A stretch of DNA of 41,787 nucleotides from the IMG/VR virus record IMGVR_UViG_3300049436_000041, positions 1-41,787 of that record; one strand, 5' to 3'. The notes under the pieces are model-generated. The model was not told where the DNA came from. It did no database searches and saw only the letters and a list, made by a program, of their open reading frames with translations. This stretch comes from a virus. Its lineage: Duplodnaviria; Caudoviricetes. The position numbers and the translations under genes are program-made. Shown one piece after another: positions 3 to 39,119 of this stretch; the stretch's first letter is position 1, and every line of letters begins with the position of its first letter.

Positions 3-1181
3 CTATGAAAGTTGCACTGCCATATAATCTATTTTGCTGGTGCGGAAAACATTTTGCACCACTAACCATGGGATGCCATTCTGGCGGATAATATTTTCTG
101 CCGTGTTTGCATGCCCGGAAACCCAGCCCACGCCATCCAATTCACCCCAGATATTTGCCGGGCTTGTTTCCCGCAGGGCATAAGGGAAAATAGGGTAGCT
201 TCCATCCAGCCCGGCGCGCAGATCCGTGCCCACTGAATAGTAAGGCACCCATAGGCCGCCGTATGGGTCAATATTGGTATCAAAATAGCTGTAGGCACTC
301 CAAACGCCATCGGGCCTGCGCAGCCTGGCGCTATAGCTATCCGGCAGCGTGTCAGAATCCTTATGATTTGCCTTGCAGAATAAAGCTGCATTATCTTCTG
401 TCACACTCCAGCGCCAGGCCGTGGAATCCTGCGCGGGCTCTGAATTGTAAGCCAGGCTGCCACCTATAAAAAGCGGGTATGGATGGCTATTTCCATCCAT
501 ATAAGGCGTAATCAATCCCAGATAGGCCGCCATATAATATGTTGAATTTTTCACAATGATAATGCACCTGCGCCCGTTTGCAATAAACCAGTATGGGATA
601 TCTCCCACCCGCAGCAGTTGCATGAAAGGCCCTTTTGAAGTCATACAGCCACTTTGATGCCTAAAATCAAGCCCGGCATTGTATGAAGTAAAGCCATTCA
701 GGCGCAGCCCGTCATAATCTCCGGTAACATCGCTTTTCCTGCGCGCCGCCACATAGATTTCACTCAAATCATCATTGCCCGGTGCCATCCAGCAACAATA
801 ATTTGCGTCAAGATTTTCCACTGTGCTGAATCGCTTCTGCACCCATGGCGCTGTGATAACAAATGTTATGGAATCGCCATTTACCCAGGCCACGCCGCCC
901 ACCTGCGCTGTGAAGCTGCAAACGCTGCAGGTGAATAGGGTGCCTGCAGTGCCGGTGCCCAGCGCGCCGGATACACTGCCAGCCACGGAAAAATCAGTGG
1001 CGCTTGAAAATGAAACCGTTATAGTTTCCAGCACGCTGGCTGCAGTTCCCAAAATATTTGCAAGTATTCCATTTCCTGTGGCAGCTGGCACCATATCAAG
1101 CGCATGCCCTTTGGTTAAAAATGCATCTAATTTTTCCAGCAAATCAATAGCGCTGCTTGCAGTGCCAATTTCATAACTCAT
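3..1181 (-). CDS. virion structural (tail) protein following the tape measure
   Basis: 392-aa ORF directly downstream of the TMP. N-terminus (ASSAIDLLEKLDAFL) and C-terminus (GELDGVGWVSG...WLVVQNVFR) resemble the post-TMP structural proteins of D3112/YuA-like siphophage tails. Confidence 0.7.
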   Translation of the reverse strand: MSYEIGTASSAIDLLEKLDAFLTKGHALDMVPAATGNGILANILGTAASVLETITVSFSSATDFSVAGSVSGALGTGTAGTLFTCSVCSFTAQVGGVAWVNGDSITFVITAPWVQKRFSTVENLDANYCCWMAPGNDDLSEIYVAARRKSDVTGDYDGLRLNGFTSYNAGLDFRHQSGCMTSKGPFMQLLRVGDIPYWFIANGRRCIIIVKNSTYYMAAYLGLITPYMDGNSHPYPLFIGGSLAYNSEPAQDSTAWRWSVTEDNAALFCKANHKDSDTLPDSYSARLRRPDGVWSAYSYFDTNIDPYGGLWVPYYSVGTDLRAGLDGSYPIFPYALRETSPANIWGELDGVGWVSGHANTAENIIRQNGIPWLVVQNVFRTSKIDYMAVQLS

Positions 1182-1182
1182 A

Positions 1183-4089: not shown

Positions 4090-4096
4090 TCACCCC

Positions 4097-4444
4097 TTAA
4101 TCCTGCAGGATATCTGGCAGGCGTGGCGGCTTTTCCTTGCTTCCAGCCTGTGCCCTTATATTCCAGCTGATATATTCCACAATATAGCCCTGCTGCGCAT
4201 CCTGCTTTAATTTTTCCTCGAAGGCCACCAGCGCTTCAGCCAGCGGCCACCTGAAAACATCCTGATATTTTTCTATTTTGAATTCAGCCAGGGTGCGCAC
4301 CAGGTCACCCCATTGCCCAAAATCTTCTAAGAATTCGGCGCGCTGTTCTGCTTTTCGGGCTGCGCGCCGCTGCCTTCCATCGTCGCTTCCTTTGTTAAAG
4401 CATTTTGGGAAACATTCAAAAAGCGCAGCCCTTGCTGAAAAAAA
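4097..4444 (-). CDS. tail assembly chaperone, -1 frameshift extension (gpT-like part of gpGT)
   Basis: The -1 frame opens right after a TGA at the T TTT TTT run (A7 at 4438-4444 on +). It stays open through the listed ORF 4097..4300. Confidence 0.75.
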   Translation of the reverse strand, partial: FFSARAALFECFPKCFNKGSDDGRQRRAARKAEQRAEFLEDFGQWGDLVRTLAEFKIEKYQDVFRWPLAEALVAFEEKLKQDAQQGYIVEYISWNIRAQAGSKEKPPRLPDILQD

Positions 4445-4794
4445 TCAGTTATCACTGCAATGATAATGGCTTGCACTTTTTCCTTATCCTTCACATCAGT
4501 AAGGTTTCCAAGCCATTGCGCTGTGGCTTCCGCCATTTCCGGGCACCAGTCCTTGTCTTTTTTTTCCTCTGGAATTATCAGGCCGCCAAGCAGCTGCAGT
4601 GGTATTCCGTTTTCGATCACCGCGCCCATTAAGCGCATGGCAAAATCCTCTGCAGATTCGCTTTTATTTGGCGTTATGTTGTGAAGCCCGGAAAGCTTCA
4701 GCTGGCGCATAACATAATAATCATTTTGCAGCGTGGTGCATTTTATGGCCCTATAGCGCAGGCCCTCAAAGGTATAAATTTCTGGATCTTGCAT
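4327..4794 (-). CDS. tail assembly chaperone (gpG-like)
   Basis: 155 aa between the major tail gene and TMP, with an AAGGGG RBS and a slippery heptamer near the 3' end. Confidence 0.8.
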   Translation of the reverse strand: MQDPEIYTFEGLRYRAIKCTTLQNDYYVMRQLKLSGLHNITPNKSESAEDFAMRLMGAVIENGIPLQLLGGLIIPEEKKDKDWCPEMAEATAQWLGNLTDVKDKEKVQAIIIAVITDFFQQGLRFLNVSQNALTKEATMEGSGAQPEKQNSAPNS

Positions 4795-4848
4795 GATTCC
4801 CCTTTCAAATTTTTATTATTTTCTATTGCTGGCGCTGCCGGTGCGCCT

Positions 4849-4886
4849 AAAAAAAAGGGGCAGCGGGTATGGTGCCCAGCTGCCCC
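4849..4886 (-). terminator. intrinsic terminator after the major tail gene
   Basis: GGGGCAGC...GCTGCCCC stem followed by a run of 8 T on the minus strand. Confidence 0.8.
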
Positions 4887-4913
4887 GCAGGGTAAAGGCC
4901 CAGGCCCTAAAGG

Positions 4914-5732
4914 TTAGGATGCCTTCAGCTTCACAATTCTAAAGTATTGTTCGCCCACTGCCTTTGAAGTATCGGCATATACTTTGCCCTTTAGATTAAA
5001 GGTGCCAAAATCTTCAGTGATAAGGCCCAGCGCGCCATCCGGGTTAAGCCCGCACAGCCAAACATCAACGGCCACGCGCGGCCCCATGGTTTGATTAGGC
5101 GCACTAACATATTTGACATGGCCACGAATGCTGCTTGTGGAAAGCGCCTGCACCGTCCATCTATCATCTGCTGCTGCAATTTCAGGCACGCTTCCAGACC
5201 AAGTTATCAGAGTGCCAGCCACGGCTTTGTTAGTGCCCGTGTAGCTGGAATTCAAGCGGATAAGCCCGGCTGCCAGGTCTAAAGTGTATGCCGATGCATT
5301 CAGCGTGGTGGCCCCTTGTTTCACAGCAGATACGGTTACATCATACGCGCCGATTTCATACCATTTATCAAGCTGCACATCACCAGCAGTGGCTGGCCCC
5401 ACTGCCCTATCAGTTACAGTGGCCACTGCTGCCTGTGTCAGCACTGTATCCGCGCCGATCACTGCCAGTGCAATATTTTCCTTGGTGAATTCAGTGATTG
5501 CCATATTCAGTTCTGCGCTGCTGCCAATGGGCACTTCAGCATAGGTGGCCCGCAGTCCATCCATGGCATTCTTTTTTTCCTTTACTTCCACGCTTGTGGT
5601 TATTTCAAACGTATCCACATTGCCCAGGTGGCGCAGCCCGGTGCTATTTCCATTCGCATCAAACCTATCAAAATAAACGCTGCCCGCGCCCAGGTACAGA
5701 TTTTGCGCATTAGGTGCCAATCCCATTTTCAT
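4914..5732 (-). CDS. major tail (tube) protein
   Basis: 272 aa. NLYLGAGSVYF...LRHLGNV N-terminus and LNPDGALGLITEDFGTFNLKGKV C-terminus fit siphophage tail tube proteins. GGAGG RBS and position also fit. Confidence 0.8.
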   Translation of the reverse strand: MKMGLAPNAQNLYLGAGSVYFDRFDANGNSTGLRHLGNVDTFEITTSVEVKEKKNAMDGLRATYAEVPIGSSAELNMAITEFTKENIALAVIGADTVLTQAAVATVTDRAVGPATAGDVQLDKWYEIGAYDVTVSAVKQGATTLNASAYTLDLAAGLIRLNSSYTGTNKAVAGTLITWSGSVPEIAAADDRWTVQALSTSSIRGHVKYVSAPNQTMGPRVAVDVWLCGLNPDGALGLITEDFGTFNLKGKVYADTSKAVGEQYFRIVKLKAS

Positions 5733-5742
5733 TTCCTCCAGT

Positions 5743-6561
5743 TTATCTAGTTAGAATTGCACAGCCCGCTGCCCCTATTAGGCTGCCGATGGCCGCGCCT
5801 TTACTGCCTTTTTCTGCCCCTATGGCCGCGCCGCCCGCGCCACATGCGCCAATTGCAAAACCACGCAATAAACGCTTTGCAGTGCTGCCACCTTTTGCAG
5901 TTTCGCGCCACTTTTTGCGGTCTAATTCTAAAGCCTGCACCTGGGCGCGAAAGTCTTTGATATCAGCCAGGCATCCACCTAATTCACTTTTGCACTGCTG
6001 CCCCTCTTGCACGGCAATTGCAGTTTTGATGGCTGCCTGTTCTGTTTGCAAAACATAATTTTCAGTTTCCGGCGCTGCCGGTGCCGCCTGGGCCTGTTCA
6101 TTGGCCACCTGGGCTTCCGGCGCGATCTGCGCGGCCTGCTGGCCCGGCGCACCCTGGGGTTTTTCAGCGCCAGGCTGCCCGCTGAATATTTCAGGGCTTA
6201 TCTGTGCTGCCGGAATTACTACAGTTTGCCCAGTGGTGCCGGGCACATATTTTGTAATTATTTTAATGGCTGCGGCTGCGCTTTTGATCTGCTGCCGCTC
6301 TGCATTCCATTGCCTGCGCGCTGCTTCCATTTCCACCTGGCGCTTTGCAATATCATTTTTTGCCCTGTCAATAATCTGCTGCTGGGCGCTGCTGAATGCC
6401 TGGGCTTCCGCCATTCGCGCCGCCTGGCGCTTGTGGGCCGTGTAAAAAGCCACACCTATTGCAAGAATAATAATTGCCTGCACTGCGCAAACTTTCTGCA
6501 GGGTGCGCGCGGTTAATACTTCACTGATGGCCTGCTTAATTCCATCCTTTGAAAGTTCCAA
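5743..6561 (-). CDS. membrane-anchored coiled-coil protein with C-terminal glycine-zipper helix (spanin-like candidate)
   Basis: Probable TTG start at 6561 after a GGGGG RBS, just past the stop of the upstream gene. N-terminal TM (VCAVQAIIILAIGVAFY), two coiled-coil segments, hydrophobic Gly-rich C-terminus. Confidence 0.55.
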   Translation of the reverse strand: MELSKDGIKQAISEVLTARTLQKVCAVQAIIILAIGVAFYTAHKRQAARMAEAQAFSSAQQQIIDRAKNDIAKRQVEMEAARRQWNAERQQIKSAAAAIKIITKYVPGTTGQTVVIPAAQISPEIFSGQPGAEKPQGAPGQQAAQIAPEAQVANEQAQAAPAAPETENYVLQTEQAAIKTAIAVQEGQQCKSELGGCLADIKDFRAQVQALELDRKKWRETAKGGSTAKRLLRGFAIGACGAGGAAIGAEKGSKGAAIGSLIGAAGCAILTR

Positions 6562-23939: not shown

Positions 23940-24550
23940 AATCTCATTATTCCATCAGTGCCCCTTCTGGCACCGTCCGAAAAATCGCCACCTATTCCTA
24001 TTTTATTGCCCCTTTTTTTATGGCCACCAGCAGCAGGCCGGAATGCCTGGCGCGTTTGTGCGCGCCCTTCTCTGTTGTAGTCTCTGGTAGTCTCTTGTGT
24101 AGTCTCTGATATATGTTTGCCGGTTTCCGGCAGGCTTGTCTGCCGGTTTTCGGCAAGCTTGTCTGCCGCTTTTCGGCAATCCAGTTTGCCGCTTTTCGGC
24201 AATCCAGTTTGCCGCTTTTCGGCATACTGGGAAATGCAAACTGCCAGCGCTTCAAAATCCACACGATAATGCACAGTACATGGCACACCCATGGCTTTTT
24301 CCTGCCAGAATCCAAGTGCTTTAAGCTTCCGGCGCGCGCCATCCTGTTCATGCCTTGAAAGGCATATTTCCTGCTGCCATTCCTTCATGGTTTTATAAAA
24401 CCATCCATCAGGAAGCTTTGCGCGTTCACTCCAGTACACTGCCTGTGAAAGCATAAGGCCTGCAGTTGCACTTTCACAGATCCTGGCAAGTATCGGCTGG
24501 AATGCTACGGGCCTTTCCAGCATGGCCCTAACCACATCATTTAAAGGCAT
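23936..24550 (-). CDS. replication initiator (lambda O-like, N-terminal wHTH)
   Basis: RPVAFQPILARI...LMLSQAVYW...WFYKTMKEWQQE motif. Contains iterons and lies upstream of the DnaC-like gene. Likely ATG at 24550. Confidence 0.85.
   Translation of the reverse strand: MPLNDVVRAMLERPVAFQPILARICESATAGLMLSQAVYWSERAKLPDGWFYKTMKEWQQEICLSRHEQDGARRKLKALGFWQEKAMGVPCTVHYRVDFEALAVCISQYAEKRQTGLPKSGKLDCRKAADKLAENRQTSLPETGKHISETTQETTRDYNREGRAQTRQAFRPAAGGHKKRGNKIGIGGDFSDGARRGTDGIMRL
24115..24229. repeat. replication origin iterons, five 23-bp tandem repeats
   Basis: GTYTGCCG-N5-CGGCA units start at 24115, 24138, 24161, 24184 and 24207, inside the initiator gene. Confidence 0.85.
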
Positions 24551-27017: not shown

Positions 27018-27135
27018 TCAAACTCATAGCCAGGGCCGTTTAATTTGCGCGCGCCCGCAATAATCAAATAGCAAAACGCTGAAGCCAGAATATAAAGCCC
27101 TACAAAAATTGATAAATACATGGTGCACCCCTGGG

Positions 27136-27666
27136 TTAAATGCGTGCGTTTTTTTGTTCGCTGTATACTTCCCCTCTGATATCTGCCATGGTTAGCGGCC
27201 CTATTTTGTGCGGGTATTCATGTGAAAGCCTAACAATTAGCAGCGCTTTTTCCAGTGATGGCCGCCCGCCATTCATCAGCTGGCCCACCCTGCCTTTTGC
27301 CATTCCCAGCTTTGCCATAAGCGCGCGCTTTCCTATCTTGTCCATCCATTCATAAAAGCGCTTTGAAGGCTCACCCAAATCACTTTTTATTATGGTCATT
27401 TCATGCACTGAAATTTTCCAGCCAAAGTCTGCCATGGTTAGCGGCCCTATTTTGTGCGGAAAATGTTGTGATAGCGCCACAATCTGCATGGCATCCACCT
27501 GGCGCGGCACTCTGTGGCAGTTTCCTGGTGATATCCAAGAATAAATCAGCGTTTTATTTTTCTCCAAACTATTGGCAAGCCTGGAAGGCCCAAAGGCCCT
27601 AACCCATTTTTTGAATCTATCGGAAACGCAAGGCCTTTCAATTTTGGCCTTTGGCCATGTTTTCAT
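27136..27666 (-). CDS. tandem double-HTH (Cro-like) regulator
   Basis: Two homologous halves, each ending in PHKIGPLTMAD. Likely start 27666 after a GGGGG RBS. Confidence 0.6.
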   Translation of the reverse strand: MKTWPKAKIERPCVSDRFKKWVRAFGPSRLANSLEKNKTLIYSWISPGNCHRVPRQVDAMQIVALSQHFPHKIGPLTMADFGWKISVHEMTIIKSDLGEPSKRFYEWMDKIGKRALMAKLGMAKGRVGQLMNGGRPSLEKALLIVRLSHEYPHKIGPLTMADIRGEVYSEQKNARI

Positions 27667-27779
27667 ATGTAACCCCCGGAAAGCCAGCAGGCGCTGGCAG
27701 TGGCTGATATTTTTCATTTATTTATTTTCATAAACTCTGCTTTTTTGCGCGGGCTCACCAGGGCAGAATTTATGAAAAC

Positions 27780-27808
27780 AATCTAATTTAAGAAAAGCTT
27801 ATTTTCAA
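27780..27808 (-). promoter_or_regulatory. sigma-70-like promoter for the regulator/recombination/replication operon
   Basis: TTGAAA-N17-TAGATT in AT-rich intergenic DNA. Confidence 0.5.
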
Positions 27809-27967: not shown

Positions 27968-28564
27968 TTATGGCAGCAGCGCCCGCAGGCGCACCCCAGA
28001 TTCCAGCACCATAGTGCAAGCCAGAAGCACATTACCCTGGCCGCCATATACTTCAGAAAGCCTGTCAATTTGCGCAATCGTTCTAGGCGGCAGCTTATAA
28101 GACATGGGCACTTTTTCATCATACTGGGTTTCATTCAGCTGCAGCGGGCTTTCCAGGCGGCAGAGTATTTCCGCGCCGGTCTGAATTGCACTGCGCTGTG
28201 ATAGGAAAATGGCACCCAGCGCTTTAATATCGCGCACCACTTTTGCGGCCAGTTTATAGCCCTTTGCTTTTGTGGCTTTATCTTCTGCGGATTCCTGAAG
28301 CGGCCCGGCTTCCGGCTGCTGCAGCGCCACGCGGTTTTTATCCCAGTATTCTGATAGCTTATCAATTCTGCGCTTTATTCCTATTCCGCCAGCTGCGTTT
28401 GATTCCTGAATTATCCTGTGCACGCTGCTTTTCCCCAGCCCGGTGCGCGTTGCGATCTGGCGCACAGATAGATTTTTCATATGTAAAGCAATAACATGGG
28501 CCTTAATCTCGATGGAAGCGCCGCTGCGGCCCGGCTGCTTTTTGTTTTTCTTGTCAAATTTCAT
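27968..28564 (-). CDS. HTH DNA-binding regulator with possible C-terminal ribbon-helix-helix
   Basis: LSVRQIATRTGLGKSSVHRII is an HTH. VPMSYKLPPRTIAQIDRLS is RHH-like. Confidence 0.7.
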   Translation of the reverse strand: MKFDKKNKKQPGRSGASIEIKAHVIALHMKNLSVRQIATRTGLGKSSVHRIIQESNAAGGIGIKRRIDKLSEYWDKNRVALQQPEAGPLQESAEDKATKAKGYKLAAKVVRDIKALGAIFLSQRSAIQTGAEILCRLESPLQLNETQYDEKVPMSYKLPPRTIAQIDRLSEVYGGQGNVLLACTMVLESGVRLRALLP

Positions 28565-28600: not shown

Positions 28601-28630
28601 AATCTATAACCCAGGGGTGCACCGTGTCAA
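28601..28630 (-). promoter_or_regulatory. sigma-70-like promoter of the HTH regulator
   Basis: Perfect TTGACA, then N18, then TAGATT, just downstream of a terminator. Confidence 0.6.
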
Positions 28631-28695: not shown

Positions 28696-28908
28696 TTATT
28701 TTGTGGCGGCAGCCCTTTGATAATCTTCATGGAAGTACCCTATAGAATAATGCAGAGAATCCAGCGCCCGGCAGCGGGCCATTTCATCCTGGCGCTTTGC
28801 CTTTAAATTAATAGCATCCTCCAGGCACAGCCTGGCGCTGCTTGCCATTTCGCCTTCGCTGGCGTGCTTTTTCGCCAGTTCAATAACTGCGGAAAGTTCC
28901 ATTATCAT
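28696..28908 (-). CDS. small early hypothetical protein
   Basis: ATG at 28908 with a GGAGGT RBS. 70 aa, with its own promoter. Confidence 0.7.
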   Translation of the reverse strand: MIMELSAVIELAKKHASEGEMASSARLCLEDAINLKAKRQDEMARCRALDSLHYSIGYFHEDYQRAAATK

Positions 28909-28943: not shown

Positions 28944-28970
28944 TTATCGGCATATTTTCCAAGGGCATTA
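28944..28970 (-). promoter_or_regulatory. sigma-28 (FliA/SigD)-type promoter
   Basis: TAAT-N15-GCCGATAA, intergenic, about 35 nt before the start codon. Confidence 0.7.
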
Positions 28971-29002
28971 GAATTATTTTTCATGCACCAGGCGGCCCGG
29001 CA

Positions 29003-29233
29003 TTAGGCCTGGGCTTCCTGCAAATTATTAATTGATTCCTCCAGCCCCTGGCTGGCGCTTTCCAGCTGTTCTGCAGCTTCCTGCATGGCCTGGCCACGCT
29101 CTGCAGCCTGCAGGCCTTCCGGCAGGTTTTCCAGGGCTTCCACTTCAGCTTCCTGCAGCATTAAAACATCTGCCTGGATATCCTCCAGTTTTGCGATTAT
29201 TTCTGCAATTTGTTTCCGGCGCTTTGCGTTCAT
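29003..29233 (-). CDS. small acidic coiled-coil phage protein
   Basis: GGAGGA RBS. MNAKRRKQI...LENLPEGLQAAERGQAMQEA is a pattern common among phage hypothetical proteins. Confidence 0.75.
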   Translation of the reverse strand: MNAKRRKQIAEIIAKLEDIQADVLMLQEAEVEALENLPEGLQAAERGQAMQEAAEQLESASQGLEESINNLQEAQA

Positions 29234-29282
29234 TGCTTAATCCTCCAAAGGCCCGCCGCCAGGCGGCAGCGGGCCGGGTTAT

Positions 29283-29915
29283 TTATGCCGCCTGGTTTTC
29301 TTTCTTTCCATCCACTTCCATTTCCTGGCCAAAATGATTGCAGTTTGAATCCGGGCAGGTAGGCACTGCAATTTCCAACCACATGGCAGTTGTTCGCACC
29401 GTGTAGCCACATTCCGGGCAGCAGGCCTTTAACATCCTGGTGCCTTGTTTTTTCGGGCCGGTGCTGGTGCCTGCTGCAAACTGCATGGCCGCGTGCGGAT
29501 ATGCGCCCACCTGGCCTTCAATTTTTACCCAGCGATCTGCGAAAACCGCGCCGGGCTGCGTGGCTGTCATTTTTCCTTCAAGGCCCAGGGAATGTGCCAC
29601 GCGGGCAAAAACCTTGCCGTGCCCTTTATCCAGGCCCACTGCTGCATGCGTTAATTCATGGGCCACGATAGCGGCCACTTGCATGGGCTCTGCCTGGTTA
29701 GGATGCACAAAAATTTCATGGGTGCCATCGTTACTGGCAGCGGGTGCCCAGCATACGCCGATGGCATTCTTTTTTTTGCTGCCAGTGAAACCGCAGCTTA
29801 TACGGTATTTCGGCAAGTTGTAGCCTATTTCATTGAATAATGGCCGCATTGCTTCAGCTACTTTTACCAGCCAGGCTTCCCTTATCGCATCACGTTTGAT
29901 ATTTTTTTCTGCCAT
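29283..29915 (-). CDS. SprT-like zinc metalloprotease
   Basis: HELTH...GHG zincin motif and C-terminal CPECGY zinc ribbon. True start is likely MAEKN at 29915 (GGAGGA RBS). Confidence 0.8.
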   Translation of the reverse strand: MAEKNIKRDAIREAWLVKVAEAMRPLFNEIGYNLPKYRISCGFTGSKKKNAIGVCWAPAASNDGTHEIFVHPNQAEPMQVAAIVAHELTHAAVGLDKGHGKVFARVAHSLGLEGKMTATQPGAVFADRWVKIEGQVGAYPHAAMQFAAGTSTGPKKQGTRMLKACCPECGYTVRTTAMWLEIAVPTCPDSNCNHFGQEMEVDGKKENQAA

Positions 29916-30022
29916 TTTTATTTCCTCCATGCTCTCCATATCGTTTAAACGCGCCGATACTTTAGGAAAAAAATCATTTTTTATAAAAAAAATGGGGTGC
30001 CTTTTTGGGGCACCCCTGGGTT
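29905..30022. repeat. copy 1 of a ~118-bp terminator-promoter-RBS-start cassette
   Basis: Near-identical to 30623-30741. Confidence 0.9.
29938..29964 (-). promoter_or_regulatory. sigma-28-type promoter
   Basis: TAAA-N15-AACGATAT with an upstream A/T tract. Confidence 0.6.
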
Positions 30023-30043
30023 TTTGGTGATGGCGGCCCAGCT

Positions 30044-30286
30044 TCACATAAGCTGGCAGTATTCCCTGGCGGCCTGGCGATCTGCCACCAGGCCGCCTGC
30101 CTGGATATCAAGGTGCTGCGCTGATATATGCAGGCGCTTGCCCGGCAGCAGCTTTCTGAATTCTATTTCTGCCAGGCGCAGCGCCTTGCCGGATGCTGGA
30201 TTAATGCTGCTGCCGATCACTTGAAAATTAAATCTCCGATCATAGCGCCCGTTGTTTATCGTAACAATGCCGTGAAAATATTTCAT
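30044..30286 (-). CDS. small early hypothetical protein
   Basis: ATG (MKYFHG) at 30286 after a GGAGGA RBS. Confidence 0.6.
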   Translation of the reverse strand: MKYFHGIVTINNGRYDRRFNFQVIGSSINPASGKALRLAEIEFRKLLPGKRLHISAQHLDIQAGGLVADRQAAREYCQLM

Positions 30287-30300
30287 GCCTGTATCCTCCA

Positions 30301-30330
30301 AAAAGCGGGCCAGGTTTCCCTGGCCCTTTT
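30301..30330. terminator. hairpin with A/T tracts on both sides
   Basis: AAAA-gc-GGGCCAGG-tttc-CCTGGCCC-TTTT. Confidence 0.5.
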
Positions 30331-30333
30331 CTC

Positions 30334-30633
30334 TTATAGCCTGGTATAAAGTCCGGTTTCACGTTCAAAAAGACTGCAAAGGCCATCAAAATATATTCCA
30401 TCATGGCTGGCCAGCGTTTGCACTTTTCCGCCGCGCACTTTCAAAAATTCCACCTGGTACAAGTCAGAAGGCTGCAGGGTAATGCGCACATGGCTAACCA
30501 TTTTTGCATTGCGCATGATTTTAAAAGTTAATGAATCCGCGCTGCCCAGCATATTGTGTGCGCCTGTCATTGCAATAAATTGCTTGCCGCCTAATTGCGC
30601 CAGGATTGTTTCCGCCACTTGCTTTTCCGCCAT
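30334..30633 (-). CDS. conserved small phage early protein
   Basis: AETILAQLGGKQFIAMTGA...FERETGLYTRL is a pattern common in phage hypotheticals. GGAGGA RBS. Confidence 0.75.
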   Translation of the reverse strand: MAEKQVAETILAQLGGKQFIAMTGAHNMLGSADSLTFKIMRNAKMVSHVRITLQPSDLYQVEFLKVRGGKVQTLASHDGIYFDGLCSLFERETGLYTRL

Positions 30634-30741
30634 TTTCATTTCCTCCATGCTTTCCTTATCGTTTAAACGCGCTGATACTTTAGCGGAAAAATCATTTTTT
30701 TATAAAAAAAATGGGGTGCCTTTTTGGGGCACCCCTGGGTT
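30623..30741. repeat. copy 2 of the ~118-bp terminator-promoter-RBS-start cassette
   Basis: Near-identical to 29905-30022. Confidence 0.9.
30656..30682 (-). promoter_or_regulatory. sigma-28-type promoter
   Basis: TAAA-N15-AACGATAA with an upstream A/T tract. Confidence 0.6.
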
Positions 30742-30757
30742 AATTCAGCAATGAAAA

Positions 30758-31009
30758 TTAAAATAGGCTTTTCTGCGCTGCCGCCTGGCCCACTTCAAAA
30801 TCAAAGGTGCACCCAGGGTGCTGCGTGCTCCACTTTTCCATCCACTGCTGGGCCATTTTTCTGGTGTTATCTCTGGCGCTTGCCAGGCCTGCGCCATGAT
30901 TTTTTCCGCCGCAAATGCAATCACATTCCTTTTGTTTTGCCAGGTAGCAGCGCGCATCGCAGCGGCCCTGGCATCCATCGGAATTATAAACGGCAATCAA
31001 TGTGGCCAT
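30758..31009 (-). CDS. small Cys-rich (zinc-binding) protein
   Basis: RCDARCYLAKQKECDCICGGKNHG. Abuts the stop of the upstream gene. Confidence 0.7.
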   Translation of the reverse strand: MATLIAVYNSDGCQGRCDARCYLAKQKECDCICGGKNHGAGLASARDNTRKMAQQWMEKWSTQHPGCTFDFEVGQAAAQKSLF

Positions 31010-31507
31010 TCAGCGTTCCTCATAATCCGGGCAGCATGTGCTGGGGTGCGGGCCGCCGCAATAATAGCAGCCTTCCGGGTGCACCCCTGTGATTTCCTCT
31101 GCTTCGCGCTGCAGGTGCCGCTGCAGGAATCCATCACCAGCCTGCCGGGCAGTGCCCAGCGCAGCCTGGGGTTTTTCTTCTGGCGGCAGTATCTGCGCAC
31201 TTAATAGGGTGCCGGTGCCGCTTGTGCTGTTTACTGCTTCGCAAATAGCCTGGCGCAGATCCGCCCAGGCCAGGTGCCCTGGATAGATTGCCACGGCCTG
31301 GCCGCTTTCATCCTTCATCAGGATCTGCGCGGCCATCACCTTTTCAATGGGATAAGCCTTTATAGTTTCCACACCCTGCGGCCCGGCTTCCTTCCTGCGT
31401 GAATATCGCTGCACATTCACCACTACCTGGCCGGATTCATCAGCAATGATGCGCTGATAGCATCCTGTGCGGCATTCCCTAATCACCTTTTCCCCGTTCA
31501 AAAGCAT
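31010..31507 (-). CDS. hypothetical protein with C-terminal zinc-knuckle-like motif
   Basis: AAAGGTGG RBS and CYYCGGPHPSTCC. Confidence 0.65.
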   Translation of the reverse strand: MLLNGEKVIRECRTGCYQRIIADESGQVVVNVQRYSRRKEAGPQGVETIKAYPIEKVMAAQILMKDESGQAVAIYPGHLAWADLRQAICEAVNSTSGTGTLLSAQILPPEEKPQAALGTARQAGDGFLQRHLQREAEEITGVHPEGCYYCGGPHPSTCCPDYEER

Positions 31508-31521
31508 ATGCCACCTTTCCC

Positions 31522-31614
31522 TTATCTGCCCAGCACGCGCTGGGCCTTTTTAATTGAAAAGTAAATTTTAAGAACTGCCCCTGCAATCACTAAAACTGTC
31601 AAAAATTCGATCAT
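31522..31614 (-). CDS. 30-aa single-pass membrane peptide (not in the ORF track)
   Basis: MIEFLTVLVIAGAVLKIYFSIKKAQRVLGR, with an AAGGGGG RBS. First ORF after a sigma-28-type promoter. Confidence 0.65.
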   Translation of the reverse strand: MIEFLTVLVIAGAVLKIYFSIKKAQRVLGR

Positions 31615-31635
31615 ATTAACCCCCTTTTAGTGTCC

Positions 31636-31663
31636 TTTTCGGCATACCTCTGGGAATACTTTA
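31636..31663 (-). promoter_or_regulatory. sigma-28-type promoter (leftward)
   Basis: TAAA-N16-GCCGAAAA; the -35 region reads CTAAAGTAT as in the cassette copies. Confidence 0.6.
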
Positions 31664-31696
31664 GCACTTTTTTTGCCCGGCGCTTTATTTTTTCCC

Positions 31697-31723
31697 TAAA
31701 GCCCAGGCACCAGGTGCCGATAA
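31697..31723 (+). promoter_or_regulatory. sigma-28-type promoter (rightward), perfect consensus
   Basis: TAAA-N15-GCCGATAA, 22 nt before the ATG of the only convincing plus-strand gene. Confidence 0.8.
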
Positions 31724-31745
31724 GGCAGCCTGAAAGGGGTTAATT

Positions 31746-31961
31746 ATGACAAATGAACAGAAACAAGAAAACAGGCTGGTTATGAAGCTGCAGGCAGCCC
31801 TGGCTGCTGCCGATGATAGGCTTAGTGAATTGCTGGCCACGCCAGAAAATGATGCTGTGGTGCTATTGCTGCGCGCGGCCATTCTGGATGCTGAAAGCTT
31901 TTTCCCGCCCTCCGATTATACAGGCCGCAGCCTGGCTGAAATGGAAAAGGCCGCCTGCTAG
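31746..31961 (+). CDS. small acidic helical hypothetical protein
   Basis: 71 aa, AAAGGGGT RBS, own promoter, occupies an otherwise empty interval. Confidence 0.7.
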   Translation: MTNEQKQENRLVMKLQAALAAADDRLSELLATPENDAVVLLLRAAILDAESFFPPSDYTGRSLAEMEKAAC

Positions 31962-31967
31962 GCGGCC
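31945..31967 (-). terminator. terminator of the lysis cassette, overlapping the convergent gene's stop
   Basis: GGCCGCC-tagca-GGCGGCC-TTTT on the minus strand. Confidence 0.55.
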
Positions 31968-31996
31968 CAGGGGTTTTAAAGGGCATGGCGGCCTTC

Positions 31997-33366: not shown

Positions 33367-33825
33367 TTAAGACATTTTGAACTGATCCGTGGTGCGCGCC
33401 GGGCCTTCCACTTCAGAAAATACTGGCGTTATTCTTAACTTAATCCACTGGCCCGCGCCGCCATCTGAAGTGCATTGCGCCAGCGTGTATAAATAGCTGG
33501 TGCCCGTCAAACCAGTTGTGGTGCGCACCACGGCATCATTAATCAGCACTTCCACCTTATAGCTGCCTAAAACGCCAGCAGCCACGCTGGCGGCATCCTG
33601 GTGCACTATTTCACGCGCGCTCTGTGCATACTTGTTTCTGTGCGCCCAGGTCAAAGTTACATCGCCGGAAAATGTGGTGCCATCGGGCCAGTATTCGCCA
33701 TTCACCTGCACCTTTCCAGGCGGATAGGGTTTTGCGGCCCTGGTGCCTGGCGTGAAAGTTATCTGGCTGGCGCTGGCTATCGGCAGCACTTTCCTGCTGG
33801 TATATGGCAAAAGCTTTAAATACAT
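33367..33825 (-). CDS. detached C-terminal part of the central tail-tip protein
   Basis: YLKLLPYT...RAAKPYPPGKVQVNG...VTLTWAHRNK resembles the segment that normally continues the tail-tip protein of this tail type. Confidence 0.65.
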   Translation of the reverse strand: MYLKLLPYTSRKVLPIASASQITFTPGTRAAKPYPPGKVQVNGEYWPDGTTFSGDVTLTWAHRNKYAQSAREIVHQDAASVAAGVLGSYKVEVLINDAVVRTTTGLTGTSYLYTLAQCTSDGGAGQWIKLRITPVFSEVEGPARTTDQFKMS

Positions 33826-34094: not shown

Positions 34095-34883
34095 CTATGC
34101 AATTCTCACCATAATAACCCAGCTGCAATTATTAGTTGAAAGCCCGAAAACTGGCATGAAAGTTCCAAGCACTTCCCCTTCATCAATTGGCACCTGCACT
34201 GGTGAATTAAAAACCCTGAAATTTAAGCCCAGGGCAATAACATTGTAAAGTCTGCCACCATAATAAAGGGTTCCACCCAGGCTATCTTTCACGCAATGCT
34301 CAATAGGATAGTAAAGATATCTGCCGCTGCGCGTTTGCCCTGGAAACACGTTTGCATCCTGGTGTGGAGCGTTTGCCGTTGTGGATGAATAAGGCGTGCT
34401 GCCGTTCCTTGTCATCAAATATACATAACTGTTATCAGTAGCTGTGCCTGCATCATTTCTGAATCCATGCACATAAGTATAAACTGCAAGGCCCAATGGA
34501 AAAGGCACCAGGCTGAAAATGCCACCCATAACCGTTTCCGCACTCTGTGTGGGCTCGTACCAGCAGTCAATAATAAAACTGTAAGGGGTTGAATATATGT
34601 TTACGGTGGCCCCATTTGTATTAATGTTCGCGCGCTTGCTGCCGCAGGTTGAATTATTCTGATTAAACATTTGCACCTGCAAAATATTTGCTGCAGGGCT
34701 TGTGAATTGCGCATAAGAAATGCGGCCATCAGCGCTATTAATTTTCCACTTATTGCTGCCCTGATCCGTCCATCCCAGAGCTGATAATTCTGATCCAATA
34801 TTTGCCAAAATATTGGCTGTGTTTGTCACGCCGGTAAGTTTCAAATATCTAAAGCTTTGATTCAGATAGCTAGGGATTGACAT
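34095..34883 (-). CDS. putative tail/receptor-binding structural protein
   Basis: 262 aa, beta-rich. N-terminus GVTNTANILANIGSELSALGWTD is paralogous to the adjacent gene. Confidence 0.6.
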   Translation of the reverse strand: MSIPSYLNQSFRYLKLTGVTNTANILANIGSELSALGWTDQGSNKWKINSADGRISYAQFTSPAANILQVQMFNQNNSTCGSKRANINTNGATVNIYSTPYSFIIDCWYEPTQSAETVMGGIFSLVPFPLGLAVYTYVHGFRNDAGTATDNSYVYLMTRNGSTPYSSTTANAPHQDANVFPGQTRSGRYLYYPIEHCVKDSLGGTLYYGGRLYNVIALGLNFRVFNSPVQVPIDEGEVLGTFMPVFGLSTNNCSWVIMVRIA

Positions 34884-35691
34884 TTTCTGCCCTCGTAAAA
34901 ACTCTCAGATATCCCGTATTGCTTGTTTTAATGTTAGTGGCGCGAAAGCTTCCCGTCACGCCAGGCCCCATGGGTGCCGTTACTATTTGCCCATATGCAT
35001 AACTGTCTGGTGCCCACATAACGCAAGGGAAATGGCCCCAGTACGTATAGGGTGAGGAATATTTGCAAATCATAATGGGAGAGAATAAGGGGCAGTTTGA
35101 TTGATACTGATACATGGATTGCTTGTATATTGACTGTGCCCTGGTAGATGTTGAGTAAGAACTATCGCCGCTATCCCTTGCAAACCATGATCCCAAATAA
35201 TTAGCATTTCCAGATAATGTGCCAGTGTCACCGCGCGGGCCGTTGCTGCAGATAAATGGCTGAAAAATAGAATCACTGCTTTCTGGCCAAAGCTCGACGC
35301 GAAAACAGAACATGGTTTCAGGGGTTGCCCTGGCCGTTTCTATCCAGAATAAGTCTGGTGAAATGTGGATAAAAACATTTGTCCCGCCTGCATCAATATC
35401 TATCGTGCTCGACGTTTGATTATTTATCAGGTAAGTGCCCGCGCCTTTATCATAAAAATAAGCCTTCAGGCGCGTGGCGGATATTCTTGAAAGCGTAATT
35501 TCCAGATATCTGCCATCTAATCCATTCACAGGCGTGCGCCATGGGCCGGTGCCCACTCCGCTGGTATCAGTCCACCCGCAGGCCACCAGCGCTGTGTTTG
35601 CAGCGCTGATTATATTGGCCACATCGGTGCACCCTGAAAGCATGGTATACCTTTGAATTTTCGTGAACATGGCGCCGGTTTCTGGCATCAC
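34870..35691 (-). CDS. putative tail/receptor-binding structural protein
   Basis: 273 aa. GCTDVANIISAANTALVACGWTD is paralogous to 34095..34883. Confidence 0.6.
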   Translation of the reverse strand: MMPETGAMFTKIQRYTMLSGCTDVANIISAANTALVACGWTDTSGVGTGPWRTPVNGLDGRYLEITLSRISATRLKAYFYDKGAGTYLINNQTSSTIDIDAGGTNVFIHISPDLFWIETARATPETMFCFRVELWPESSDSIFQPFICSNGPRGDTGTLSGNANYLGSWFARDSGDSSYSTSTRAQSIYKQSMYQYQSNCPLFSPIMICKYSSPYTYWGHFPCVMWAPDSYAYGQIVTAPMGPGVTGSFRATNIKTSNTGYLRVFTRAENVNP

Positions 35692-36244: not shown

Positions 36245-38296
36245 CTAATCATTAAGCAGCACTGAATCATCACCCGTGTCTATGATTTCGTGCCCTTCGT
36301 AATCGCCCACAGCATCCTGGCCATTGTGGCTGATGAAATAAACGCGCGCGCCTGCGGAATGATCCTGCGGAAAAGTATCATAAACGCCGCGCACAATGCC
36401 CTTTATTGTAAAGCTGCCATCACCATTATCATCAATGCTCTGCCAGGCGCATATTTCCCCATTATCGGCAAATAGCAAAAGGTTTTCACCCCTATCGCGG
36501 CCCACTTCATCAGTGGTGAATATTTCATCCAGATCCACGCCGGATATGGTGAAACCCGCAGTATCTAATGCTGCAGTTTTTCTGCTATAGCTGGCAGCCA
36601 GCACGCCGCTGGGTGTGAAGTATCCTACATCATTCATTTGCCGGTAATCGTCCGGGCTGCTTTCCTTCGCCATCACCAGAAAGCCCTTGCTAACATAATC
36701 GCCACGGGCCGCAGCAATCAGCATGCGTGGCGCGCCGATGCCATCCAGCAGCTGGTGTGGCGCTTCATATACAGTGGCAGCAGCCACTGGCAGAGGGTCG
36801 CTGATAGGATCTGTCCACCCGCTGCCGCCTGGCGGATTATAGGCAGTATAATTTGCCTTGAAAATATCCTCACAGATTTCAATTTCCATCATGCCATCCT
36901 TCAGATTTCCATAATTAATGGCAGTGGCACGCACTGGCATGCCATCCACACCCAGTGGCGGCCAGGTAAGTTTAAACGCGCTGCCCATGCGCAGCGCCCA
37001 GGCTTTCCTGTTCACTTTAATGCGCCCTTTACCGATTGGATAGCTACTTGCGCGCAATTCCCTATTGCAAGCTTTTTGGGCCGCTGCAGCATTGGTGAAT
37101 CCAGAAAAATCAAAGGTTTTGCTTTCCAGTTCACCATTTCTGATGGAAAAATTAGCGCTTTCCTGCGCCTGCACAGTTGCGGTTTTCCAGTTTTGGCGGC
37201 TCGTATAAGTCACCTTAACCTGGTTAATAGTATCCTCCCAGCTGCCGCGCGAAAATTCGCACTCCGCAATATCATCCTGGTTAAGTTCTAGCAAATCACC
37301 TTCATCATAATCTGGCCTGGCAAGCTTCAAAGTCCATAGGCCTGTGCTTGGATCTTGAAAGCAAACGCCATCAATGTGCTGCAATATCAATTCAATAATT
37401 TTATCGGCATCCTTTGGTGTATCTAAAAGCATGCTGATGCCAAATTCTTCATTGGCCAGGGTAACCCCTGCCTGATAAAAGCTTGCCAGGTCGATGCGCT
37501 CTGCAGGAAAACCTAGCGCCCATATTTTTGAAGTAAGGCATTCATAAATTATTTCGGCTGGGTTTGCATCGCCGTTTATGTTTGATTCATCGGCAGCCAG
37601 GCCCAGATTTGCCGGGCAGCGCCGCAAAACAAAAGCCAAATTTTTTATATACTGCGTGGTGCCTAAATACCACGTTTTGCACACCAGGTGGCATATGCGC
37701 CGATAGGCCGGGTATGTTATGGCAAGCTCATTGCTCATGTATGCATCACTTTGTTGCGCCTGGTTTCCAGGGTAGAAAGTGGCATTTCCAGATATTCCGC
37801 CTTCCCTATCATCGCCGCCAAAAATATCAGGTGAATTCACATAAAGGCTAACCGTGCCATCAGCATTAGTCACTGGCGCAGGTGAATATTTGATACCAAA
37901 CCATCTATTGCCCGGCAGCTGGCTGCCGCCTGCCCAGTCTAGTGCCTTGTAATCTTCACCAGTGCCCGCCAGGATTTCCACCAGTTCATCCACAGGCCCA
38001 TGGCAAAGGGCCAAATCCATGCCTAAATAATATTTGTATCCTGCGGTATAGGTTGCCCCGAATGAAAAAATGCCTTTGCTTTTCTTTATCGGCTGGCACT
38101 TATAATGCCCATACCAAACCACGTTTGGTGATTTCAAGCAGCAGGTGCCCCAGAATACTGGCACGCTGCGGCCATCCTGCGCAGTGGGCACCTGCAAATC
38201 ACCCAGCGCGCTGGCTTTTGCATTCGGCACTTTTGCCAGAATGCCTGATAGCACCGTGGTTCCTACATAAATCAGCGCTAGTACCCACCAATACAT
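36245..38296 (-). CDS. central tail-tip protein (gpJ-like hub), lacking its usual C-terminal segment
   Basis: PTAQDGRSVPVFWG, GYKYYLGMDLALCHGPVD, DANPAEIIYECLT and RGVYDTFPQDHSAGARVYF motifs. Likely ATG at 38296 after GGAG. Confidence 0.85.
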   Translation of the reverse strand: MYWWVLALIYVGTTVLSGILAKVPNAKASALGDLQVPTAQDGRSVPVFWGTCCLKSPNVVWYGHYKCQPIKKSKGIFSFGATYTAGYKYYLGMDLALCHGPVDELVEILAGTGEDYKALDWAGGSQLPGNRWFGIKYSPAPVTNADGTVSLYVNSPDIFGGDDREGGISGNATFYPGNQAQQSDAYMSNELAITYPAYRRICHLVCKTWYLGTTQYIKNLAFVLRRCPANLGLAADESNINGDANPAEIIYECLTSKIWALGFPAERIDLASFYQAGVTLANEEFGISMLLDTPKDADKIIELILQHIDGVCFQDPSTGLWTLKLARPDYDEGDLLELNQDDIAECEFSRGSWEDTINQVKVTYTSRQNWKTATVQAQESANFSIRNGELESKTFDFSGFTNAAAAQKACNRELRASSYPIGKGRIKVNRKAWALRMGSAFKLTWPPLGVDGMPVRATAINYGNLKDGMMEIEICEDIFKANYTAYNPPGGSGWTDPISDPLPVAAATVYEAPHQLLDGIGAPRMLIAAARGDYVSKGFLVMAKESSPDDYRQMNDVGYFTPSGVLAASYSRKTAALDTAGFTISGVDLDEIFTTDEVGRDRGENLLLFADNGEICAWQSIDDNGDGSFTIKGIVRGVYDTFPQDHSAGARVYFISHNGQDAVGDYEGHEIIDTGDDSVLLND

Positions 38297-38300
38297 AGGC

Positions 38301-39119
38301 CTACTCCAATCCACTGGAAAACGGGTTTTTTTCTGGAATCCATTGGAATCCATTAAAGTTTGCCCCGTTGTTAAATTTCGGCACACATCCCTGCGCGCCA
38401 TCATAAGTGCGATCACATCCAGCGTATACTGTAACCTCATCGCCCACTTGCAGGCCGCCCATGGGGTTAATCAAAACAATCTGGCTGCCGGTATGACTAA
38501 AAATCATTCGCCTTGAAAACTCTTTTTGCAGGAATCCAAGATTAAACCAGCCATTAGCCTTTGAACTGCAGGCGCTGATAGTCACTGTAATGCCATCTGT
38601 GGAAATGTCTGAAACCGTGCCGGTTATTTTCCAGAATGCATTCACAATTCCGCAGCCCGCATCAAATAGAATGTGGTTGCATTGTCTTTGATACAGCGCT
38701 GTGCACAGTGCCCGCCGCAGCACTTCAGTATCCGGCGCGCACTCCAGTTCACATTCATCATCGGTATTAAAGCGGGCCAGCAGCACGCGGCCCGTGAATG
38801 CCACTTTCATTTCACTTTCAGATTCACCATAGTGGCCCCTGTATATCAAAAGGCTTAATGGGGTGCTGGGAATGAATGAAACAAAAAGCTGGGCAATAGA
38901 ATTATCTGCCGGAATTGTCACAGTAATATGGCCGCCTTTCACTTCCTGGCTGGCCGTTGTATTTGTTCTGCCGATTATTTCAGGGATAAATTTTGCACCC
39001 TGAAAGGTTATTTCTTCCGGGCCGCTGGTATACCTCCAGGTGGCTTCTGAAGTGGCAAAAAGATAAAGTTCATAAGGCTGCCCGCTTTCCAGGCTGCTTT
39101 CCTTAGCATCAAAAGTCAT
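38301..39119 (-). CDS. tail-tip protein, DUF2163/BR0599 (lambda gpL-like, Fe-S Cys motif)
   Basis: QRQCNHILFDAGC...AGCDRT...C..KFNNGANFNGFQWIPEKNPF. Confidence 0.88.
   Translation of the reverse strand: MTFDAKESSLESGQPYELYLFATSEATWRYTSGPEEITFQGAKFIPEIIGRTNTTASQEVKGGHITVTIPADNSIAQLFVSFIPSTPLSLLIYRGHYGESESEMKVAFTGRVLLARFNTDDECELECAPDTEVLRRALCTALYQRQCNHILFDAGCGIVNAFWKITGTVSDISTDGITVTISACSSKANGWFNLGFLQKEFSRRMIFSHTGSQIVLINPMGGLQVGDEVTVYAGCDRTYDGAQGCVPKFNNGANFNGFQWIPEKNPFSSGLE

What the first reader, a model, noticed from the sequence alone, without database searches (positions are those of the whole stretch)
28944..31723. Phage early genes appear wired to the host flagellar sigma factor (sigma-28/FliA/SigD)
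Seen: five intergenic elements, each shortly upstream of an RBS and start codon, match one consensus. They are TAAA-N15-GCCGATAA (+, 31697-31723, perfect), TAAA-N16-GCCGAAAA (-, 31663-31636), TAAA-N15-AACGATAA (-, 30682-30656), TAAA-N15-AACGATAT (-, 29964-29938) and TAAT-N15-GCCGATAA (-, 28970-28944). All have upstream A/T tracts. I saw no good sigma-70 promoter in this cluster, whereas the downstream regulator and replication genes have TTGACA/TTGAAA promoters. Known: TAAA-N15-GCCGATAA is the FliA/SigD consensus, and FliA is freed from FlgM only after hook-basal body completion. No sigma factor is encoded in the window. Inference: the small host-takeover or anti-defence genes would be expressed only in flagellated, motile cells. 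This would be a phage read-out of host motility state, fitting a flagellotropic lifestyle or a state-dependent infection decision. Two of the five are copies of one duplication, so there are four independent instances.
Basis: partly seen in the sequence, partly recalled or inferred. Interest (0 to 1): 0.9.

Follow-up and report, generated by a model that had tools for sequence, protein, structure and literature searches.

The report
Flagellar-sigma promoter island in a phage
An uncultured 42-kb bioreactor phage carries a row of five sites (four strong, one weaker) matching the promoter type that bacteria use for late flagellar genes, each just ahead of small unknown genes, and has no detectable sigma factor gene, so it likely borrows its host's sigma-28; whether this lets it sense host motility is untested.

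Summary
All five sites lie at the stated coordinates, and they are the only intergenic ones among 24 loose matches. All five share an unremarked C before, and G after, the TAAA box, as in the sigma-28 consensus. Four sit 21-22 nt before a start codon. A matrix from 41 sites of other phages ranks four of them first in the genome; the fifth is weaker (rank 10). The near-complete genome shows no sigma factor or integrase. A complete temperate sister has an integrase and no such site.

The motility-sensor and flagellotropic reading is not shown. The host is unknown (only named relative: an Acidobacteria MAG), RNA data were uninformative, a tail-fibre protein folds like the pilus-binding fibres of JBD30, and flagellotropic Chi has no such island in the 41 kb scanned. 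I found no paper on such an island; the nearest precedents are prophage fliC-P (FliA promoter) and CtrA sites in phages. This scan noted the pattern before on other DNA (at least ten findings).

The parts
31696..31723 (+). Sigma-28-type promoter P1, CTAAAG-N14-GCCGATAA, exact core consensus; back-to-back with P2
   Evidence: score 20.7
31746..31961 (+). 71-aa ORF of unknown function, start 22 nt after the P1 -10 box; hairpin on the opposite strand at 31948-31968
   Evidence: no family hit
31636..31664 (-). Sigma-28-type promoter P2, CTAAAG-N15-GCCGAAAA
   Evidence: score 22.5
31522..31614 (-).
30758..31507 (-). Two further ORFs of the predicted P2 unit: 165 aa (31010-31507) and 83 aa, Cys-rich (30758-31009); no convincing family hit
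30623..30741 (-). Cassette copy 2: terminator-like hairpin (30713-30735) overlapping motif AACCCAGGGGTGC (30729-30741), A/T tract, promoter P3, RBS, first codons
30656..30683 (-). Sigma-28-type promoter P3, CTAAAG-N14-AACGATAA
   Evidence: score 22.1
30044..30633 (-). Predicted P3 unit: 99-aa phrog_9437 protein (30334-30633, start 22 nt after -10), hairpin 30307-30326, 80-aa ORF (30044-30286)
29905..30023 (-). Cassette copy 1: hairpin 29994-30016, motif 30010-30022, A/T tract, promoter P4, RBS, first codons
29938..29965 (-). Sigma-28-type promoter P4, CTAAAG-N14-AACGATAT (duplicate of P3)
   Evidence: (score 17.4)
29003..29915 (-). Predicted P4 unit: 210-aa SprT-like/phrog_6361 protein (29283-29915, start 22 nt after -10) and 76-aa phrog_4068 protein (29003-29233)
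28944..28971 (-). Weaker sigma-28-type promoter P5, CTAATG-N14-GCCGATAA; may nest a weak sigma-70 pair (TTGGAA-19-TATGTT)
   Evidence: (score 8.2)
28696..28908 (-). 70-aa ORF of unknown function, start 35 nt after P5
28601..28630 (-). Sigma-70-type promoter TTGACA-18-TAGATT with the candidate operator AACCCAGGGGTGC (28608-28620) in its spacer
27968..28564 (-). 198-aa HTH protein (Pfam HTH_23 above cut-off); candidate binder of the operator motif (inference)
27136..27808 (-). Sigma-70-type promoter TTGAAA-17-TAGATT (27780-27808) and 193-aa Cro-like protein with a duplicated domain (a single copy in sisters L476 and L477); operator motif at its 3' end (27125-27137)
34095..35691 (-). Two paralogous fibre-type tail proteins; the model of 34870-35691 matches JBD30 baseplate chains of 317 and 305 aa (bears on the receptor question)

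Best explanation
The 28.7-32.0 kb island is a set of five short transcription units, each headed by a sigma-28-type site (four strong, one weaker), which are likely read by RNA polymerase carrying the host's sigma-28 (FliA-family) factor, so that these small genes would be expressed soon after DNA entry in cells where sigma-28 is active. Shown: the sites, their spacing and position, the hairpin-promoter-RBS cassette and its duplication, no detectable sigma or integrase gene, sigma-70-type boxes on the next two regulator genes, and the same promoter row in unrelated phages. Inferred: (1) the phage is a virulent derivative of a temperate lineage, and the island replaced the integrase/immunity region that sister G001 has at the same place; (2) the island is the first wave, followed by sigma-70-driven regulators; (3) the HTH protein binds AACCCWGGGGTGC sites at its own promoter and ahead of P3 and P4 to time the switch; (4) the gain is strong first-wave expression in the swimming or dispersal cell state that the phage mostly meets, and it is an accessory boost rather than an on/off gate, because the regulator and replication genes have their own sigma-70-type boxes.
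For: Sites far above chance and intergenic only. Match to TAAAGTTT-n11-GCCGATAA. Uniform distance from the -10 box to the start codon: 22, 21, 22, 22 and 35 nt; 10 of 30 sites with a start in other phages also fall at 21-24 nt. No sigma domain in G000 (PF04545, TIGR02479, PF04542, PHROGs). By synteny with complete G001 only about 100 nt appear to be missing at the contig ends. Recurrence: among the first 80 loci (76 contigs) holding an exact CTAAAG-N14-GCCGATAA, 10 loci (7 contigs) hold two or more sites at <=1 mismatch. With a 20-nt spacer control it was 2 of 80 loci, on one contig, in a tandem coding repeat. Those sites share unselected flanks (TT after CTAAAG in 34 and 33 of 41, G after the -10 box in 34 of 41, A-tract upstream). 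No protein of the window matches any of G004-G010 at tblastn E<1e-4, which argues against a shared phage-made reader. G001 has integrase and ParB-like genes and no site scoring >=12. Precedent that a phage gene can use host FliA: PMC10705468.
Against: No transcription start or reporter data. RNA-run contigs lay over all gene classes and cannot show starts. The host is unidentified and its FliA untested. No relative in the lineage shows the sites: G001 lacks them, and L476 and L477 end about 1 kb and 0.6 kb upstream of the recombinase. P3 and P4 lack the extended -10 GC, and P5 scores low. The matrix core is circular, because the training sites were picked with the same consensus. Most exact single matches in IMG/VR are chance (about 830 vs about 620 control stretches). 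Six cultured phages showed no island: phi1402, phi1422, the Silvanigrella phage and Tunturi 1 whole, Tunturi 3 in 49 of 97.6 kb, Chi in 41 of 59.6 kb. 'Early' timing rests on position and gene size alone.
Confidence: 0.62

Rival explanations
1. State gate: the island encodes factors that commit the phage to lysis, or hold it back, so infection proceeds only in flagellated cells where FlgM has released FliA.
For: All small-gene units are on sigma-28-type sites. The island sits where the temperate sister keeps its lysogeny region. No terminator was flagged on the coding strand between P5 and the HTH regulator gene, so P5 could read into it. Analogous CtrA 'lytic deferment' proposal (PMC9437464).
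Against: The regulator genes have their own sigma-70-type boxes. No function is known for any island protein. The fibre fold matches a pilus binder. Chi, which needs a flagellum, has no such island in the part scanned.
Confidence: 0.17
2. The reader is a host sigma-28-family or look-alike sigma whose regulon is not flagellar (WhiG-like, or a life-stage master regulator as in Bdellovibrio attack phase), so the sites track a developmental stage and not motility.
For: FliA heads 92 of 140 attack-phase promoters in Bdellovibrio, many of them non-flagellar. WhiG controls sporulation (abstract listing PMC12871210). The G009 capsid's best cultured match is a Silvanigrella phage, 27.6% identity.
Against: The only named relative of this phage is an Acidobacteria MAG, not a predator. 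Two cultured Bdellovibrio phages lack the island. This rival overlaps with the best explanation and differs only in what the sigma reports.
Confidence: 0.13
3. The two boxes are read by a phage-made factor (a divergent sigma or activator) or are sites of a phage regulator, or the units run from weak nested sigma-70 boxes.
For: One other island phage encodes a FliA-like region-4 protein (G005) and G008 a weak region-4 match. Weak sigma-70-like pairs overlap four sites. Two HTH genes follow the island.
Against: No sigma domain in G000 by four searches. No shared proteins among island phages. The HTH genes have a separate candidate operator. The two-box geometry and fixed distance to starts fit a promoter.
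Confidence: 0.06
4. Chance matches in A/T-rich intergenic DNA, inflated by one duplication.
For: Only three strong independent sites; the prior-free word search was not significant.
Against: 0 of 300 Markov genomes had three sites >=17.4. 15 other gaps of 35 nt or more score <=1.3. Shifted spacers give nothing comparable.
Confidence: 0.02

Closest known systems
Class 3 flagellar promoters read by sigma-28/FliA (E. coli consensus TAAAGTTT-n11-GCCGATAA; PMC2859248, passages seen)
   Same: Both boxes and the 14-nt spacing after TAAAG (4 of 5 sites; one has 15 nt).
   Different: On a phage, ahead of non-flagellar genes; two sites lack the extended -10 GC, one has TAAT; activity untested.
Prophage flagellin fliC-P of Enterobacter under a host FliA-type promoter (PMC10705468, passages seen)
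   Same: A phage gene likely transcribed by host sigma-28.
   Different: There it is one flagellar gene in a lysogen. Here it is five units of small non-flagellar genes in a phage without integrase.
CtrA sites in pili/flagellotropic Alphaproteobacteria phages, 'lytic deferment' (PMC9437464, abstract and passages seen)
   Same: Phage cis-sites for a host motility or cell-state regulator ahead of small uncharacterised genes.
   Different: CtrA is a response regulator shown to bind and regulate. Here it is a sigma factor, inferred from sequence. FliA does not occur in that paper's main text.
FliA attack-phase regulon of Bdellovibrio bacteriovorus, TTAAG-N16-CCGATA (PMC3627812, abstract and passages seen; Table S2 not seen)
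   Same: Same promoter class used for many non-flagellar genes.
   Different: Host genes. No evidence that this phage infects a predator; cultured phi1402 and phi1422 lack the island.
Pseudomonas phage JBD30 baseplate and gp47/gp48 tail fibres (PMC11445458, abstract and passages seen)
   Same: Homologous tail-tip proteins and fibre fold.
   Different: 10-13% identity in the fold match; an extra paralogue pair; receptor of this phage unknown.

Membership tests
Sigma-28 (FliA/SigD/WhiG) promoters | -35 box TAAAG(TTT) | tested here: met
   TAAAG in 4 of 5 (TAAAGTA in 3), TAATG in 1
Sigma-28 (FliA/SigD/WhiG) promoters | -10 octamer GCCGATAA | tested here: met
   exact in 2, one mismatch in 1, two or three mismatches (extended -10 GC lost) in the duplicated pair
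Sigma-28 (FliA/SigD/WhiG) promoters | 11-12 nt between octamers (14-15 nt after TAAAG) | tested here: met
   14 nt in four, 15 nt in one; other spacers give no strong site
Sigma-28 (FliA/SigD/WhiG) promoters | Non-coding, oriented towards a gene, with room for a start site and RBS | tested here: met
   5 of 5 intergenic, 21-35 nt before a start codon
Sigma-28 (FliA/SigD/WhiG) promoters | Transcription start just downstream of the -10 box | tested here: inconclusive
   Only assembled contigs of one RNA run; they cannot show starts
Sigma-28 (FliA/SigD/WhiG) promoters | Activity depends on fliA | not testable with these tools
   needs a reporter or in vitro transcription
Host-read (not phage-read) promoters | No phage sigma factor | tested here: met
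   a small gap at the contig ends remains
Host-read (not phage-read) promoters | Host encodes sigma-28 and flagella | tested here: inconclusive
   Host unknown. Nearest named record is an Acidobacteria MAG. Some Acidobacteria genera have flagellar genes (bioRxiv 2021.04.09.439258), but the MAG's link to that family is my recall and was not confirmed
Flagellotropic phage (Chi-like) | Chi-type fibre genes gp31-gp36 | tested here: not met
   No clear homology; best profile E 0.009 in a 14-sequence set. The tail-tip proteins are homologous to both Chi and JBD30
Flagellotropic phage (Chi-like) | Adsorption needs a rotating flagellum | not testable with these tools
   uncultured
Host-state lytic deferment (CtrA type) | Host regulator binds phage sites and changes phage gene expression or lysis timing | not testable with these tools
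   sequence evidence only

The most novel reading that the evidence does not exclude
A virulent phage has replaced its ancestor's repressor/integrase switch with a host-sigma-28 switch: the island's proteins are made only in swimming cells and decide whether infection goes ahead. This is one case of a convergent, unpublished class of motility-gated phages across several phyla, with a related sigma-28 input just before the lysis cassette of cultured phage Chi.
Probability: 0.17. Interest if true: 0.88.

Novelty: new variant of a known kind. Interest (0 to 1): 0.64.

Why it matters
Phage early genes are generally held to use the housekeeping sigma or a phage polymerase (own knowledge). A recurring island read by the flagellar sigma factor would tie the first wave of infection to the host's motility or life stage, and would give a sequence signature for host state in uncultured phages. 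This genome adds three things: a lineage whose only named relative is acidobacterial, a complete temperate sister without the sites, and a pilus-type fibre fold, which suggests that sigma-28 wiring need not mean flagellum binding. The sites are short and can be tested at once in E. coli K-12 fliA and flgM mutants.

Tried and rejected
Host search: MCP, endolysin and tail-tube homologue searches gave one informative name. The GTDB scan found only 37-56% capsid relatives. Cluster look-ups for 10 proteins from G004-G010 gave no organism names. No CRISPR-spacer search was possible.

Bdellovibrio-host idea: phi1402, phi1422 and the Silvanigrella phage have no island (best scores <12, 16.4 and 16.2, scattered); rejected for this phage for lack of support. 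Acidobacteriota controls: Tunturi 1 (whole) and Tunturi 3 (49 of 97.6 kb) had 0 sites >=14; Tunturi 2, 4 and 5 were not fetched.

Lineage conservation: G001-G003, L387, L390, L476 and L477 have no strong site, but only G001 fully covers the matching region. Read data: DNA runs differ at 3 places in 8 kb, none in the sites, which is too close to inform. RNA run X7 gave 16 short contigs over early, middle and tail genes; one begins at 31724, right after P1's -10 box, but contigs cannot show starts, so I do not count it. Small-share runs were not used for habitat.

No tRNA and no Rfam match above a gathering score in 27.0-32.5 kb. The Atlas gave only unnamed viral clusters for the 100-aa protein and a Cro-like lead for the regulator.

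Literature: ten full-text searches (eight aimed at phage plus sigma-28). I saw listings only, except the papers cited. PMC4690887 and PMC9266447 mention the terms only in a plasmid table or in references; PMC11924767 has no promoter passage. Subscription journals are largely absent from the library and no supplements were read, so a prior mention in a genome paper cannot be excluded.
Full report
What the DNA is. The window is a whole 41,787-nt virus record, held by bioreactor metagenomes. It encodes a lambda-type terminase, portal and protease, a B3/JBD67-like capsid (58%), a siphovirus tail, a GH19 endolysin, a RecE-like recombinase and O/DnaC-like replication genes. A complete IMG/VR genome, G001, is syntenic at about 45-70% protein identity. 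The two genes at the window's ends are about 100 nt apart in G001, so the window appears nearly complete (the tool's completeness estimate is 88%). No integrase was found. No sigma domain was found with PF04545, TIGR02479 or PF04542.

Observation. The five sites are as described. All five have C before and G after the first box, against 1 of 19 coding matches. The published E. coli consensus is TAAAGTTT-n11-GCCGATAA (PMC2859248, passages). Start codons lie 22, 21, 22, 22 and 35 nt below the -10 boxes (the script's 19, 19 and 32 used starts one codon too far out). P1 and P2 are back to back and share a similar RBS. P3 and P4 are two copies of a hairpin, A/T tract, promoter and RBS cassette. Against: P3 and P4 lack the extended -10 GC, P5 has TAAT, weak sigma-70-like pairs overlap four sites, and a prior-free word search was suggestive but not significant.

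Recurrence. A scan of IMG/VR for back-to-back sites gave 7 loci, of which 2 hold strong pairs (G004, G005). An exact-consensus scan stopped at 124 loci (about 830 estimated), against about 620 for a 20-nt spacer control, so most single matches are chance. Clusters are not: 10 of the first 80 loci (7 of 76 contigs) hold two or more sites at <=1 mismatch, against 2 of 80 control loci, both on one contig in a tandem coding repeat. The 44 test and 42 control loci without full flanks were left out of this count. In whole records the good sites fall in one region ahead of small ORFs. These phages share no protein with the window at E<1e-4. A matrix from 41 of their sites ranks P2, P3, P1 and P4 first in the window and P5 tenth. 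Its core columns are circular, its flanks are not. Nulls: 0 of 300 Markov genomes had three sites >=17.4, and 2.31 Mb of related loci held 7.

Lineage and host. G001 carries integrase and ParB-like genes between recombinase and lysis genes and has no site >=12. The partial sister G003 shows a divergent repressor-like pair with a TTGACA box. Two closer sisters for the recombinase end too soon to show the island. The only named near relative is an 'Acidobacteria bacterium' MAG contig (tail tube 68%, second of 66 non-self hits; capsid 64%); binning of phage contigs can err. The genome lacks 28 of 64 six-base palindromes in its first 40 kb, which suggests a restriction-rich host but does not name it. 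FliA in the host is untested.

Receptor. The 392-aa tail protein matches a 318-aa JBD30 chain (E 7e-17). A model of 34870-35691 (pLDDT 89) matches only JBD30 baseplate chains (E 7e-6 and 2e-5). In JBD30 the gp47/gp48 fibres bind type IV pili (PMC11445458); assigning those chains to gp47/gp48 is my inference from their size. Chi's fibre genes show no clear homology, though their folds may be unsolved. The flagellotropic reading is therefore unsupported, not excluded.

Controls. phi1402, phi1422, the Silvanigrella phage, Tunturi 1, half of Tunturi 3 and 41 kb of Chi have no island. Chi has one site of score 20.6 inside the end of gp36, before a hairpin and the lysis genes. CTCAAGTT and GCCGAT are invariant in five related phages, but so is a neighbouring 19-nt run, and a site >=20 occurs about once per 770 kb of background. 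It is a lead only.

Second layer. AACCCWGGGGTGC occurs 6 times exactly (17 times at <=2 mismatches against 2.65 expected; motif found post hoc). Exact copies lie in the spacer of the TTGACA promoter of the HTH gene, at the end of the Cro-like gene, in the hairpins before P3 and P4, in the gap before the terminase genes, and once in a coding region. It is a candidate operator.

Mechanism. Most likely the host sigma-28 holoenzyme transcribes the island on entry; sigma-70-type promoters then supply regulators and replication genes, and a phage HTH protein times the switch (all inferred). I favour a state-matched boost over a strict gate, because the downstream genes have their own sigma-70-type boxes. 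What the island proteins do is unknown.

Known and new. The promoter class is textbook. One prophage gene under FliA (PMC10705468) and CtrA-wired phages (PMC9437464) are in print. I found no paper on a sigma-28 island in a phage without integrase (searches listed under Tried and rejected). Earlier notes of this scan report the same pattern in at least ten other genomes; they are unchecked and I do not count them as support. Verdict: real feature, sigma-28 reading likely, motility gating unproven; a new variant of host-state-wired phage regulation, interest 0.64.

Noticed in passing
L470:10093-10120 (+) (Salmonella phage Chi NC_025442, 40092-40119): Sigma-28-like site (score 20.6) inside the 3' end of gp36, about 170 nt before a hairpin and the lysis genes; box cores invariant in SP-124, Enc34, Stilesk and Redjac, but neighbouring codons are equally invariant. 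A second, intergenic site at L470:20345-20372 faces antisense to gp56.
   Followed up: partly
window 15853-65, 17406-18, 27125-37, 28608-20, 30010-22, 30729-41: Exact AACCCWGGGGTGC copies, mostly at regulatory gaps; candidate operator of a phage HTH protein.
   Followed up: partly
L119:13671-14249 (G005): An island phage encodes a protein with a FliA/WhiG-like region 4 only (TIGR02479 E 1e-8, far below cut-off), close to a sialic acid synthase SpsE gene; possible sigma mimic or late regulator.
   Followed up: partly
window, whole: Strong avoidance of 6-bp palindromes (28 of 64 absent in 40 kb; G001 lacks 8, phi1422 lacks 26).
   Followed up: partly
window 27136-27717: Cro-like regulator with an internally duplicated domain (61-nt repeat, 246 nt apart); sisters L476 and L477 have a single copy.
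   Followed up: partly
window 24147-24220: Three 23-nt tandem copies inside the O-like initiator gene, likely origin iterons; they also give false sigma-28-like matches.
   Followed up: no
window 36245-38440 and 33367-33825: The phrog_1101 tail protein is in two separated genes with fibre-type genes between them; the same split is seen in G001, G003 and L387.
   Followed up: partly
L372 (G009) 833-5759 and L381 (G008) near 5988: Several island promoters of other phages appear to nest TTGACA/TTGAAA-like and TAnnnT boxes around the sigma-28 boxes (read by eye).
   Followed up: no
L111:16280-16330 (G001): A tRNA-3'-half-like sequence beside the integrase, probably attP (read by eye); could name the host if searched against genomes.
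   Followed up: no
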